NCBI RefSeq assembly: GCF_964194155.1
Contig: NC_135901.1
Span: 7,626,001-7,690,000, forward strand
DNA length: 64,000 nucleotides
Source of the DNA: Cetorhinus maximus
Taxonomy: Eukaryota
Direction: 5' to 3'
The notes below the pieces were generated by a model. That model was not told the origin of the DNA. It did not search any database and saw only the letters and a program-made list of their open reading frames with translations. The position numbers were made by a program, and so were the translations under genes. This document shows positions 10,930 through 59,940 of the stretch, piece after piece; the stretch's first letter is position 1, and every line of letters begins with the position of its first letter.

Positions 10930-11300
10930 GGGCTGGCTGCGCAGGCGTACTACCGAGCTGGAAGTTGGGCATGCGCAATGCGGTCCCTGATTGGGGTATG
11001 CGCAGTGCGGGTTGTGCCTGGAGTGAGACGGAGAAGGGAGAAACAGTCGAGTGAGGTTGAGTAATGGGGTCGCTGGGTGGGTGGAGAGAATTAGAGCCAG
11101 GGGAGTGGGCGGGGAGGCCTCATAAACACCCGGAGAATACCTCAAACCCCCACTTAGAAGCTCCCGATCCTGTGTTTGCGCGGGATGGGGCGACAGTTGT
11201 TGGCCTGCTCTGGGTCACAGGCCTGAGTTAACGGCCGCCATCTTTCCCAGGGGCGAGATGCAGCAGGGCGCATGCGCGGTCGTCCCTGTCAGCAGGAGGA
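10930..11300 (+). promoter_or_regulatory. CpG-rich ZNF-type promoter/exon 1
   Basis: NRF1-type GCATGCGCA (10969) and GCGCATGCGC (11268), ATTGG (10990), YY1-type CCGCCATCTT (11235); paralogous to 15.9-16.2 kb. Confidence 0.7.
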
Positions 11301-11304
11301 GAGG

Positions 11305-11640
11305 ATGTTGTGAATTTCTATCCTGGACTGACGGATGGATTTTGGAAACTCCTTTTACAGGGGGTGAGAAGGGGTGAATTTCCATACAGCAAACTCAAAC
11401 GAAAAGTAATGTTTTTCTCTTCTAAATTTCTATCCTGGAAATTTCTATCTTGGACTGACAATGAAGGTCTTTGTAAATTTGTTTTACAGGGTTATTAGAA
11501 GTGGAGGATTGACAGACGGGAAACTCAAACCAAACGTCACATCCAGATCTGACAGAGTCACTCGATTCATCAGAACCTGAATATCATCAGCATCTGAATG
11601 TGGAATGAAAAAGGTTTGTCTGTTCTGTCTGTGGAAAAGC
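11305..11640 (+). pseudogene. ZNF gene 5' fragment: duplicated acceptor, leader and half finger
   Basis: Two copies of AATTTCTATC..TTTTACAG (AG ends 11360 and 11489); leader QTGNSNQTSHPDLTESLDSSEPEYH; then FVCSVCGK cut by CR1 debris. Confidence 0.75.
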
Positions 11641-11659
11641 ACCAAGACGCACAAACCCT

Positions 11660-12950
11660 GGGTTAGACCACACCTAGATAATACGTTCAGTTTTGTGCAA
11701 CAAACTAAGGAAGGATAGAATGGTCTTGGAGAGAGTGTAGCACAGATTTACCTGAGTGATACCTGAACTCCAAGGGTTTAATTACAAAATGAGATTACAG
11801 GAAATACCCATAGAGTCACAATGGCACAGAGGAGGCCATTTGTACCATTTAGCCCATGCCAGCTCTCCAGAGCAATCCAGTGAGACCAATTCCCCTGCTC
11901 CACATCCCTGTATCCTTGCAAGTTTATTTCCCTAAAGTGCCTATTCTCCTTCACATCCCCCTCTATCTCTTCCCCAAAAACTTAAATCTGTACCCCCTTG
12001 TACAATCAACTGATGGGAACAGATTTTCTTTGTCCACCTTATCTAAAGCTCATAATTTAGTATACCTCTTTCAATCTACCCTCACCTCTTTGCTAGAACC
12101 ATTCGTTTAAATCTCCTCTGCGCCTTCTCAAGGACCTTTACATCTTTCCTGAAATGTGGTGATCAGAACTGGACACAAATACTCGGGTTGTGGCCTAACC
12201 AGAGCCTAACAAAGATTCAGCATAACTTCCTTGCTTTTGTACTCAATAGCTCTATTTATGAAGCTCAAGATTCCATATACCTTGCTAACTGCTCTCTTAA
12301 TCTATCCTGTCACCCTCAAAAAATCTCTGCACATAAAGGGCCAGATCCCTCTGACTCTGTACACTGTTTCGAGCTGTGCCATGAGGCCACTATTGTCTTT
12401 CTCTCTCTATCCTTCCTGTCAAAATCCATCACCTCGCTGTGAAGGTTGTAATCTCTGAAATTTGGAAGATTAAGAGGTGATTTGATTAATGGTTTCAGGA
12501 TGTTAATTGGAATTGACAGGGTAGATAGAGAGAACTATTTCCACTGGTTGGGGAATCTAGGACAAGTGGGCGGAGTCAAACATAGAATCAGGTTCCAGCA
12601 GCTTTTCAGGGAGAGAAATGTTGTTGCAGAAACTCCTGAACTCGATGTTGAGTTCTAAAGGTCGTAAAGTGCCGAATCAAAAAATGAGCTGCTGTTCCTG
12701 GAGCTCCCACTGAGCTTCATTGGAACAGTTCAAGAGGCCAAGGACAGAGAGGTCAGAGTGGGAGTGGGGCGGAGAATTAAAATGACAAGTGACTGGAAGC
12801 TCAGGGTCAAGCTCACAGACTGAACGGAGGTTGTGCCACAAAGTGATCACCCAATCTGTTTTTCATCTTCCCAAGTATAGAGCAGACCAGATCATGAGCA
12901 GTTAATACAGTAACTCAGCTGCAAGAAGTACAAGTAAATCACTGTTTGTT
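11660..12950. mobile_element. Old CR1 fragments plus PLE fragment (about 12590-12950, minus)
   Basis: CR1 3'-type sequence on both strands; ATGAGCTGCTGTTCC..TTCATTGGAACAG shared with other PLE copies. Confidence 0.65.
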
Positions 12951-12989
12951 TCATCCCACAAAATCTCAAATATAACCTGAAGGAATATA

Positions 12990-57130: not shown

Positions 57131-57804
57131 GTGAGTTGAGATGAGTGCTTCAATCCAGTCCCACAGTAGGAGCACCTGAACGGCCTCTCACCAGTGTGAA
57201 TTCGCTGGTGTGCGGTTAGTTCAGACGACTAAATGAACCCGGTCCCGCAGTGAGAGCACCTGAATGGTCTCTCATCAGTGTGAACATGTTGATGGGACAT
57301 CAGTTCCCCAGAGCTTTTATAGCACTTCTCACAGTCTGGACATTTAAAAGGTCTCTCCCCAGTATGAACTCTCTCATGTCTCAGCACATGAGACAATTGA
57401 GTGAATCCTCTCCCACACACATAGCAGGTGAACGGTCTCTCACCACTGAATTCGCTGGTGTACAATGAGTTGAAACGATCCCCTGAACCCAGTCCCACAA
57501 TGAGAGCACCTGAATGGTCTCTCAACAGTTTGAACAAATTGATGGTACATCAGGTCCCCAGAACTTCTGTAGTATTTCCCACAGTCTGAACATTTGAAAG
57601 GTCTCTCCCAGTGCAAACCCGCTGGTGTGTCAGCAGGTTGGATAGCCGAGTGAATCCCTTTCAAAATTCGGAGCAGGTGAACGGCCTCTCCCAAGTGTGA
57701 ATGCGTCGATGAGCTTCCAGCTCAGACAGGTAACTGAACCTCTCCTCACATTCCCCACATTTCCACTGTTTCTCCCCACTGTAAACGGTGCTTTTTCCTT
57801 CCAT
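57131..57804 (-). pseudogene. C2H2 ZNF pseudogene, frameshifted and 3'-truncated
   Basis: [12 protein letters not shown] start, several frameshifts, acceptor at 57915-57914. Confidence 0.88.
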
Positions 57805-58399
57805 GTTCAAAATCTGATGACATTCAGGTTACGATAAATTGAGCGACTCCATCAGATCCTGATGTGATATTTGCTTTGAGTTTCCCAACTGCAAATCCTT
57901 CCCCTTCAATACTCTGTGAAGTTGATTTAAAACAGAAAAAAAAGAGAGTGAGAGAGAACCCACAAAAACACAAAGGCAAGTTGTGAAATTGAGATAAATG
58001 AATCTGGTAATTTGTGGAGCTGACACTAGCAAAAGTGACCATGAAAACTGCTGGATTGTCATAACAACCCAACTGGTTCACTAATGTCCTTCAGGGAAGG
58101 AAACCTGCCACCGAGACAAAGGGGAGGCAGAGAGTGAAAGAGAGGGATTTTATATATCTACAGCTCGACTAGAACTTTGACAGAATCTCCCAAATCCTCA
58201 ACCTCCACTAACTAAAAGGATGAGGGGAGCAGGTGTATGTGAACACCATCACCTCCAAGCTTCCATCCATGGACTGCAGCAGTTCAAGGAGATGGCTCAC
58301 TCCCATTTTCTCAAGGGCAATTAGGGATGGGCAATAAATGCTGGCCCAGCCTGTAACTTCCATAAATGAATTTTAAAAAACCCGAGTCACACACTGTGC

Positions 58400-59375
58400 A
58401 GATTTGTCTGACATCCAGCACTGGATGAGCAGAAATCTCCTCCACTTAAATATTCCTGCCGCTGGGTCAAAATCCTGGAACTCCCTTCCTAACAGCACTG
58501 TGGGTGTTTCTACACCACACGGACTGCAGTGGTTCAAGAAGGCAGCTCACCACCACCTTCTCAAGGGCAATTAGGGATAGGCAATAAATGCTGGCTGAGC
58601 CACCAACGCTCACATCATTGCCTTCAGTGTCTACTACAAATTCCACTCCCTAACCACTGACTCTCTCCCTCTCCTTCGCAACTGCCTGAGGCTGAATCAC
58701 ACTGTTCACAATCGCGAGATGAGCTTACAGCCACATATCCGCAACAACACCAAGGCCGCCTCTTTCTGCCTCAGTAACATCACCCGACTCCACCCTAGTC
58801 TCAGTTTATCTGCTGTTGAAAGCGTCATCCATTCATGTGTTACCTGTAGTCTAAATTATCCTAATGCATACCCAACTGGCCTCCAACATTCAACTCCGTC
58901 CTTCCACCCCCAGAATCTTGAGGTCATCCAAAACTCTGCTATCCGTGTGCTTACTCACATTCAGTCTTGTTCATACATCACCCCTGTGCTCACTGACCTA
59001 CAAAGGCTCTCATTTTAAAAGCACCAAAACTTTAAAATTCTCATATTTTCCTCCATGGTTGTGAGGATCCCGATCTCTGTATTCTCCTCCAGCCACAGCC
59101 CTCGCCAGGATCTCTACACTGATCTAATTCCAGCCACTTGAGCATTCCCGATTTTAATCGCTCCACCATCAGTGACTGTTCCTTCAGTTACCTAGGCCAC
59201 AGCTTTACGCCTCACTCTTCTTCTTTAAAATACTCCTTAAAACCTACCTCTTTGACAAAGCTTTTGGTCACCTGCCCTAATATGGCTCATGTGGCTCAGT
59301 GTCAAACGTTACTTTGTAATATTTATGTGAAATGCCTTGGAAAATTTTATTATGCTAAAAGCATAATTATTGTCA
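58400..59375 (+). mobile_element. L2 nested insertion (fifth paralogue) with LINE tails inserted
   Basis: TTGTCTGACATCCAGCACTGGATGAG start; host resumes at TTGGACATATATCG. Confidence 0.75.
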
Positions 59376-59479
59376 CTGCCTTGGACATATATCGTTGATT
59401 TGCCTCATCAATTACACTTTGTAACTCAAAGTGTGAAGCAGCTTGATGGACAATTGTCCTCAGTCTGTCATTGGGAACC

Positions 59480-59940
59480 TTTCAAAAAATGCCCACAATA
59501 AAGATGGCGGCCGCGCATGCGGCCCGCCCACAATAAAGATGGCGACCGTTACCTCGGGGCTGGAATCGGAACAAAACTGCCGTCCTGGCTCCGTGCAAAA
59601 GTGGGAACGCTAAGGTCTTTTTCGGGGTTTTGCAGATTACGCAACATGTTTACGAACCCTTTCGGCCTACCCACCGGATCCATCGATTCCTCTGTCCCCC
59701 TACTTTTCCCCTTACCGATCCGGATCCTACAAATAATCGTCTCTCCATCGCCATTTCTCGCTATGCGCATGCTCCAAAGTTTTCCCCACTGCGCCTGCGT
59801 ACTGCTGTCCGGTGATGTGGATAGGGGATATTGCCCACCGCGGGGGATGATGGGTGAAGGCGTCGCCATTGAAAGTACAAATTATTGTATCGCGATTTGT
59901 TTTCCTGGCGTGGTACGGAGACTGGGGCCGGAGGATCAAA
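59480..59940 (-). promoter_or_regulatory. Promoter/exon 1 of the 57.8-kb ZNF locus
   Basis: SBS-like ACCCATCATCCCCCGCG, NRF1-type sites, donor GTAAGG at 59715, duplicated GCCCACAATAAAGATGGCG. Confidence 0.75.

What the first reader, a model, noticed from the sequence alone, without database searches (positions are those of the whole stretch)
10930..59940. Effector-less C2H2 ZNF gene family amplifying as a modular cassette
Seen: nine finger arrays (intact, truncated or dead) plus orphan 5' ends. All use the same parts: CpG promoter, tiny exon 1, acceptor plus leader, one ZF exon, shared 3' UTR. The proteins are almost pure fingers with no KRAB, SCAN or BTB domain, and helix residues differ between paralogues. 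Known: tetrapod KRAB-ZNF and cyprinid FiNZ-ZNF clusters evolve by birth and death and repress TEs. Inference: this may be an independent chondrichthyan TE-recognition or regulatory repertoire that acts without a fused repressor domain, for example by steric blocking or through a partner protein. The sequence alone shows nothing about function.
Basis: partly seen in the sequence, partly recalled or inferred. Interest (0 to 1): 0.8.

Follow-up and report, generated by a model that had tools for sequence, protein, structure and literature searches.

The report
Shark chromosome of finger-only regulator genes
This stretch belongs to a shark chromosome packed with thousands of related zinc-finger genes whose proteins are almost nothing but DNA-reading fingers, without the silencing module that comparable families carry in land vertebrates and carp; their targets are untested.

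Summary
The nine arrays are real: 4 intact, 2 cut by early stops, 3 dead. The window lies on a 65-Mb contig. An even 400-kb sample of it held 32 arrays and 15 complete-looking genes, against none in 100 kb of 10 other contigs; that scales to about 5,200 arrays and 2,400 genes.

Effector-less is well supported at the conserved acceptor. 0 of 58 finger ORFs are open back to it, N-terminal non-finger parts are 6-15 residues, and the one KRAB hit lies on another contig.

Corrections: recent copies arise by multi-gene segmental duplication, not by a mobile cassette. At least one 'orphan' 5' end is the upstream exons of the 19.7-kb gene. One leader type holds three fossil fingers with old stops. Finger backbones are under purifying selection (dN/dS 0.2-0.5). 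Contact residues change about twice as fast as other finger residues (0.95, interval 0.51-1.45), so positive selection is not shown.

Splicing, expression and TE binding were not established. Best reading: a shark analogue of KRAB/FiNZ repertoires, with any effector supplied in trans, possibly through a conserved atypical first finger.

The parts
10930..11300 (+). CpG promoter module with two GCGCATGC-type motifs and a YY1-like motif (motif names recalled)
11361..11620 (+). partial plus full leader-derived segments after the promoter; no finger array follows directly
13060..14508 (-). dead finger gene split by a LINE fragment (13438-14390)
14704..15546 (+). type B exon: leader, decayed fossil fingers, ORF 15058-15546 with 5 fingers and an early stop
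15740..16130 (+). CpG promoter, likely that of the 19.7-kb gene
16257..16357 (+). leader-derived internal 5' UTR exon (inferred) ending at a GTAAG donor
   Evidence: annotated model P0081 joins the same parts
16493..17165 (+). conserved intronic block shared by type A genes; second copy at 56448-57131 (-)
19669..20585 (+). type A finger exon: leader with in-frame stops, CDS 19778-20533 (8 fingers), short 3' UTR with AATAAA
20600..21000 (.). CpG promoter-like block without an assigned gene
21648..22000 (-). remnant of the intron that precedes type A exons; the exon itself is gone
23100..23460 (+). CpG promoter upstream of the 24.4-kb gene
24155..25560 (+). type B exon: CDS 24365-25402 (12 fingers, a two-finger block duplicated with 2 differences in 168 bp), 3' UTR
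25870..26360 (+). dead array with 3' UTR remnant
32660..33913 (-). type A finger exon: CDS 33810-32848 (11 fingers; close paralogues have 12), 3' UTR
36480..36880 (-). CpG promoter of the 33-kb gene; its core is inverted relative to the 15.7-kb promoter
38850..39100 (-). promoter remnant
42800..44235 (-). type A finger exon: CDS 44125-43004 (12 fingers), 3' UTR; 21 other places in the genome match at 95-99%
48145..48550 (-). CpG promoter of the 43-kb gene, 94% identical to the 36.5-kb one
50185..51583 (-). type A exon, ORF 51493-50888 cut by a nonsense codon; decayed fingers and 3' UTR behind it
57150..57913 (-). dead type A exon (frameshifts and stops)
59480..59850 (-). CpG promoter upstream of the dead 57-kb gene

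Best explanation
A shark-lineage repertoire of finger-only, sequence-specific nucleic-acid-binding proteins. It fills one 65-Mb chromosome-scale contig and turns over by segmental duplication, finger gain and loss, and pseudogenisation. SHOWN: thousands of copies; one coding exon; 6-15 non-finger residues at the N-terminus; in-frame stops that bar any exon spliced to the conserved acceptor from adding protein; purifying selection on the finger scaffold; faster change at contact positions. INFERRED: CpG promoters and non-coding 5' exons express them broadly; the variable fingers read repeated DNA, most likely transposons, as KRAB and FiNZ families do; repression, if any, comes from occluding the site or from a cofactor recruited in trans. 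A conserved atypical N-terminal finger (Trp before the first Cys, Pro at +1, Glu at +5, net acidic helix) is the best candidate docking surface. Odds: many copies make functional proteins, about 0.85; their main targets are TEs or repeats, about 0.5; the first finger is a cofactor dock, about 0.25.
For: Scale: 32 arrays, 23 ORFs with 5 or more fingers and 15 complete-looking genes in 40 even 10-kb samples; 0 in 10 control stretches; 37,144 finger candidates genome-wide. No fused effector: 0 of 58 ORFs open from the acceptor; 50 of 56 indels in type B leaders shift the frame; one KRAB hit, on C34; 0 of the 150 scored SCAN hits on C24; 0 of 21 cartilaginous-fish proteins among the 120 listed carry KRAB, SCAN, BTB or ZAD. 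Selection: linker 0.24, other finger residues 0.48, contacts 0.95 in 19 independent pairs; contacts against other residues P about 1e-6 (sites treated as independent); 180 distinct fingerprints in 238 fingers. First finger: Pro+1 in 53 of 54 and Glu+5 in 49 of 54 distinct arrays; helix charge -1.0 against +0.6. Wells et al. 2023 (PMC10547256) link ZNF and retroelement numbers across animals, independent of accessory domain.
Against: Contact dN/dS does not exceed 1 with confidence (bootstrap 0.51-1.45). It is only 0.47 in the 16-copy family of the 43-kb gene, where 9 of 15 paralogues carry stops. A first run on 8 pairs gave 1.3-1.8 and shrank with more data. No binding, expression or splice evidence was obtained. 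Only 150 of 4,987 SCAN candidates were scored, and BTB was not searched genome-wide. A constant first finger may be plain shared ancestry: a single-copy conserved gene carries a near-identical finger. The W-finger pattern matched only 11 of 24 ORFs in the unbiased sample.
Confidence: 0.5

Rival explanations
1. The proteins are functional, but act as a diversified set of ordinary regulators (host promoters, satellite DNA, RNA, or protection against recombination), not as TE silencers.
For: Purifying selection and variable contacts fit any target class. Wells et al. discuss non-TE targets and a genome-stabiliser role. No repressor domain is present.
Against: Thousands of fast-turnover copies, many dead, fit fast-changing targets better than stable host genes (inference).
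Confidence: 0.22
2. Copy number is mostly a by-product of a recombination-prone chromosome; only a small core is needed, and the selection signal is inherited from older functional lineages.
For: Blocks of tens of kb recur at 90-99.7% identity with their LINE fragments; dead arrays and stop-bearing copies are co-amplified; some near-identical copies may be assembly duplicates.
Against: Even among 95-99% identical copies, nonsynonymous variants are depleted (0.30); the backbone ratio stays at 0.2-0.5 at dS about 0.07; 15 of 21 complete ORFs with 5 or more fingers keep their start and a natural end.
Confidence: 0.18
3. A hidden effector exists: an unrecognised upstream exon joins through another acceptor near the start codon, or a minority subfamily keeps a coding leader.
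For: The type B leader reads as an open 41-codon frame after a phase-1 acceptor, the layout of effector-plus-array genes; some annotated shark models translate it (P0016, P0075, P0076); splicing was not observed.
Against: 0 of 58 ORFs are open from the acceptor; stops lie about 8-15 codons before the start codon. The leader shows no consistent coding signal (type B 0.84 in frame against 0.96 and 0.85 off frame; type A 0.58 against 1.00 and 1.19, small counts). The upstream part of P0016 has no protein relatives and matches dispersed genomic places. Three proteins with the leader end at the fossil stop.
Confidence: 0.07
4. The cassette is itself a transposable element or a retrogene family.
For: Thousands of copies; both orientations equally common (296 and 296 exact 20-mer matches).
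Against: Only 3 of the 592 exact matches lie on contigs C1-C23; introns, promoters and neighbouring genes are copied together; no leader in 100 kb of controls.
Confidence: 0.03

Closest known systems
FiNZ-ZNF genes of cyprinid fish (Wells et al. 2023, PMC10547256)
   Same: Lineage-specific poly-C2H2 family concentrated on one chromosome, young paralogues, fast contact residues, whole array in one exon.
   Different: FiNZ genes have a coding first exon with a 28-residue domain and number 684 in zebrafish. Here upstream exons cannot add protein at the conserved acceptor, and the estimate is about 2,400 complete-looking genes. TE derepression was shown for FiNZ and is untested here.
Tetrapod KRAB zinc-finger clusters
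   Same: Birth-and-death clusters, HTGE[KR]P linkers, CpG promoters, head-to-head pairs, finger gain and loss.
   Different: No KRAB on this contig; the genome's one KRAB hit looks like PRDM9 (identification recalled). Tan et al. 2021 (PMC8455134) report KRAB families lost in cartilaginous fishes.
Uncharacterised shark 'ZNF239-like / gastrula zinc finger-like' annotations and the Wells et al. ORF counts
   Same: The same family is annotated in several sharks. The supplementary table counts 1,106-3,586 ZNF ORFs in three chromosome-level shark assemblies and 1,223 in a skate.
   Different: These are automatic names and counts. I found no description of gene structure, fossil fingers, lack of effector or selection in the searches listed in the full report.
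ZNF512/ZNF512B
   Same: KRAB-less finger proteins that bind repeats and recruit SUV39H (passage in PMC13537249): a precedent for repression in trans.
   Different: A pair of conserved genes, not a large fast-evolving family; no homology was tested or is claimed.

Membership tests
KRAB-ZNF | N-terminal KRAB domain in an upstream coding exon | tested here: not met
   One KRAB hit among 150 scored of 152 candidates, on C34; in-frame stops before the start codon
KRAB-ZNF | Tandem C2H2 array in one 3' exon with canonical linkers | tested here: met
KRAB-ZNF | TRIM28 recruitment and H3K9me3 at targets | not testable with these tools
   needs IP-MS and ChIP
FiNZ-ZNF | 28-residue FiNZ domain in a coding first exon | tested here: not met
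   No FiNZ profile was run, but no upstream exon can be in frame at the conserved acceptor, and N-termini are 6-15 residues
FiNZ-ZNF | Concentration of the family on one chromosome | tested here: met
FiNZ-ZNF | Positive selection at base-contacting residues | tested here: inconclusive
   0.95 (0.51-1.45) in 19 pairs, twice the other finger residues; 0.47 in one young family; no site model was run
FiNZ-ZNF | TE derepression on knockdown; expression at zygotic activation | not testable with these tools
   no usable RNA evidence
SCAN-ZNF | SCAN domain | tested here: not met
   None in 6 window ORFs; 0 of 150 scored genome hits on C24, of 4,987 candidates
ZBTB | BTB domain | tested here: not met
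   None in 6 window ORFs or in the Pfam lists of 21 cartilaginous-fish proteins; not searched genome-wide
Lineage-specific tandem poly-C2H2 clusters (general kind) | Birth and death with a purifying scaffold and variable helix | tested here: met
Transposable element | Genome-wide dispersal as a unit with defined ends | tested here: not met

The most novel reading that the evidence does not exclude
Sharks run a TE- or repeat-recognition system on a dedicated chromosome of about 2,400 finger-only genes. The founder lost its N-terminal coding part before the main shark lineages split, and the invariant acidic first finger replaced a fused effector as a built-in cofactor dock. That would be a third vertebrate solution beside KRAB and FiNZ, with no separate repressor domain.
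Probability: 0.2. Interest if true: 0.85.

Novelty: new variant of a known kind. Interest (0 to 1): 0.62.

Why it matters
KRAB and FiNZ families pair a variable DNA reader with a fused module. A vertebrate family several times larger than the zebrafish FiNZ set, whose members cannot carry such a module at their conserved acceptor, tests whether large finger repertoires need a fused effector at all. It bears on the open question of whether they exist to silence transposons or to stabilise repeats. Nearly all members share a few start-codon contexts and one signature finger, so family-wide knockdown and pull-down in a shark embryo model are feasible. It also flags a whole shark chromosome that automatic annotation leaves as uncharacterised genes.

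Tried and rejected
RNA: no RNA holder was listed on record for window 32700-37050. Contigs of 4 runs only guessed to be RNA, from three coded organisms, were laid at 82% likeness. They cover the finger exon, leader and promoter. Repeats swamped the tables, only 15 of 1,468 joints were shown, and none of those is a promoter-to-acceptor splice. No conclusion on expression or exon 1.

Ancestral effector exon: the N-terminal part of P0016 found only itself (1 of 93 candidates) and matched dispersed places in the genome. The leader plus first fossil finger found 3 proteins of 14 candidates, all ending at the fossil stop and with unrelated N-termini, one a histone H2A chimera. The Atlas search of the leader gave best scores of 0.79, within the range of shuffled sequences.

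Positive selection: the early 8-pair estimate above 1 did not hold. Cys/His ratios (0.05) are biased low by pattern-based selection and are not used.

Linkage with histone clusters: 0 of 150 scored histone hits (of 2,465 candidates) on C24. BolA labels on P0101 and P0104 were not followed; these belong to another conserved gene.

ARAGORN found no tRNA; Rfam gave one weak tRNA-like hit at the window's end. The solved-structure search gave only generic finger proteins. No structure or complex job was run: no partner is known, and a fold of a finger array would not discriminate. The four intact window proteins are not in the protein collection by exact sequence.
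Full report
OBSERVATION. A six-frame scan found 62 C2H2 matches, 61 of them in the arrays. With the self-alignment they form nine arrays. Four ORFs are intact (8, 12, 11 and 12 fingers), two end at early stops, three are dead. Shared acceptor-leader segments, seven CpG promoter blocks and two related 3' UTR types recur. Pfam sees no effector domain in the 6 finger ORFs scanned.

SCALE. The window is G000:C24:7626001-7690000; C24 is 65.2 Mb of a 3.99-Gb genome. 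Leader searches gave 2,459 and 3,680 first-look candidates, and the scored best 40 lay on C24 or on high-numbered contigs. Forty evenly spaced 10-kb stretches of C24 held 238 fingers, 32 arrays, 23 ORFs with 5 or more fingers and 46 leaders; 23 of the 40 held at least one. Ten stretches of other large contigs held none. Scaled up: about 5,200 arrays (bootstrap 3,400-7,000) and about 2,400 genes with start, 5 or more fingers and a natural end (15 of 21 complete ORFs). The finger estimate, about 38,800, agrees with 37,144 candidates genome-wide. An exact leader 20-mer occurs 592 times, 3 of them on C1-C23 (only the first 100 places are listed). Some near-identical copies could be assembly duplicates. 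Named relatives come from several shark orders, including sawshark, horn shark and catshark, so the genome is a shark's and the family is old.

GENE ANATOMY. Two exon types share one acceptor. In type B, about 330 non-coding bases precede MEKPWK. They hold a leader and three fossil fingers with stops in 17 of 21, 13 of 21 and 21 of 21 distinct copies, plus a frameshift; 50 of 56 indels shift the frame. Annotated sawshark and horn-shark proteins end at the same first fossil stop, so the decay predates their split (inference). In type A, a start codon follows the leader directly (MEGK), with a stop just upstream in 17 of 18 at one column and some in-frame stop in 18 of 18. Of 110 leaders collected, 58 were followed by an ORF with 4 or more fingers, and 0 of 58 are open from the acceptor (many are close paralogues). 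So no exon spliced there can add protein. Non-finger N-termini are 6-15 residues. The genome's only KRAB hit is on C34 and looks like PRDM9 (identification recalled). None of 150 scored SCAN hits is on C24.

ORPHANS. The order promoter, leader copy, conserved intronic block, type A exon occurs in 15 of 20 loci chosen for likeness to the 19.7-kb leader. The leader copy ends in a GTAAG donor in 9 of the 14 places listed, the window among them; it is mutated in the other 5. Annotated model P0081 joins these parts. The 15.7-16.4-kb 'orphan' is therefore most likely the 5' end of the 19.7-kb gene. The blocks at 20.6, 21.6 and 38.9 kb remain true remnants. The promoter core appears in both orientations, with head-to-head genes in L109 and L110, which suggests bidirectional promoters. 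The GCGCATGC-type motif occurs 7.75 times per 100 kb on C24 and 0 times in the controls; the YY1-like and CCAAT motifs are not enriched.

HOW IT AMPLIFIES. The same offsets recur across. A block of at least 33 kb is repeated about 501 kb away, and again near 9.07-9.09 Mb and, inverted, near 7.84 and 21.25 Mb. Stretches of 8.5 kb match the window at 90-95% with their LINE fragments. In L014 and L017 the window's 11.85-16.21 kb is absent, which puts the 10.9-kb promoter in front of the 19.7-kb gene. That is how the parts get mixed. Arrays change length quickly: the 33-kb gene lacks one finger present in its 97% paralogues, and the 24-kb gene has a two-finger duplication with 2 differences. Of 15 fetched paralogues of the 43-kb gene (of 21 matches at 95-99%), 9 carry stops.

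SELECTION. From 97 in-register ORFs I dropped 25 near-identical ones, formed 19 disjoint pairs, and left out finger pairs over 22% divergent at non-contact sites; 166 finger pairs remained, dS 0.067. dN/dS: overall 0.41, linker 0.24, other 0.48 (0.39-0.57), contacts 0.95 (0.51-1.45); positions -1 and +3 reach 1.19 and 1.13. Contacts differ from other residues (P about 1e-6) but not from synonymous sites (P 0.75). The 43-kb family gives 0.30 overall and 0.47 at contacts. So the scaffold is under purifying selection, and specificity residues are relaxed or diversifying. Positive selection is not shown. CpG-inflated dS could bias the ratios down.

A CONSTANT FINGER. Where present, the W-finger is the first or second finger of the ORF (61 of 94 ORFs; 11 of 24 in the unbiased sample). 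It keeps Pro+1 (53 of 54 distinct arrays) and Glu+5 (49 of 54), and has a net acidic helix (the Trp was part of the search pattern). A conserved gene in a ray and two sharks carries a near-identical finger and similar neighbours. It has one 95% match in G000, on C251, and may be the family's sister or source. Whether this finger binds protein is untested.

MECHANISM. Most likely these are short DNA-binding proteins with diverse specificities, aimed at repeats, acting by occlusion or by recruiting a cofactor in trans (0.5). The TE link rests on analogy. Wells et al. 2023 (PMC10547256; sections 4 and 10, passages, rows of supplementary file 2 and part 7 of file 1 seen; files 3-5 not searched and could bear on novelty) report that ZNF and retroelement numbers correlate independently of accessory domains, and that FiNZ knockdown derepresses young TEs. 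A passage in PMC13537249 gives ZNF512/512B as finger proteins that recruit SUV39H. Passages of PMC11603059 cover TRIM33 with KRAB-like and FiNZ proteins and do not mention sharks.

NOVELTY. The kind is known, and high shark ZNF ORF counts stand in the Wells supplement, though its main text has no hit for shark, cartilaginous or Chondrichthyes. Eight searches on the family's context returned no description of it; most were seen as listings only. I read passages of PMC8455134 and PMC10208646. The library lacks most subscription journals, so absence from print is not established. New here, as far as seen: the chromosome-scale census, the in-frame-stop argument for absence of an effector, the fossil-finger UTR, and the constant first finger. 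Two earlier AI notes from other genomes describe similar inherited stops; they are leads, not support.

VERDICT. Real, large, under selection, and effector-less at the conserved acceptor; function untested. New variant of a known kind; interest 0.62.

Noticed in passing
G000:C22 about 30-39 Mb; L167:1262-2601: A second finger cluster of a different family (CEVCDKSF-type fingers, 15 or more per ORF) without the C24 leader. The one copy read also has a stop just before its start codon.
   Followed up: partly
G000:C32 8.7-21.4 Mb and C39 1.0-1.9 Mb: Very large histone gene clusters (2,465 candidates genome-wide); a few finger genes lie inside the C32 cluster.
   Followed up: no
L031 (G000:C34:9123034-9123144, -): The genome's single KRAB hit, PRDM9-like by recall.
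   Followed up: partly
G000:C251:204509-204700 (-): Single-copy conserved finger gene, 95% identical to a zebra-shark protein over 64 residues; candidate sister or source of the family. Further dispersed relatives at C13:72.97 Mb and C22:30.35 Mb.
   Followed up: partly
type B leaders, e.g. L050, L053: A 15-codon upstream ORF (first fossil finger up to its stop) keeps its start codon in 14 of 21 distinct copies; it could dampen translation of the main ORF.
   Followed up: partly
genome-wide: 4,987 SCAN-like candidates dispersed over most large contigs, probably capsid parts of gypsy-type retrotransposons (interpretation recalled).
   Followed up: no
window 53510-54418 (-); related 41016-41737: 302-codon frame resembling the end of a Penelope-type reverse transcriptase with a GIY-YIG-like tail (recalled, not searched).
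   Followed up: no
window 28203-28867 (+): LINE C-terminal fragment with a single C2H2-like motif, not part of the family; no Pfam hit.
   Followed up: partly
window 27582-27884, 35659-35827, 45978-46035: Short tandem duplications (103, 30 and 28 bp units) inside LINE fragments.
   Followed up: no
window 63937-63994 (-): Weak Rfam tRNA match, probably a SINE head.
   Followed up: no
P0121: A sawshark model fuses histone H2A to the family's leader, hinting that histone and finger genes are neighbours in that genome.
   Followed up: no
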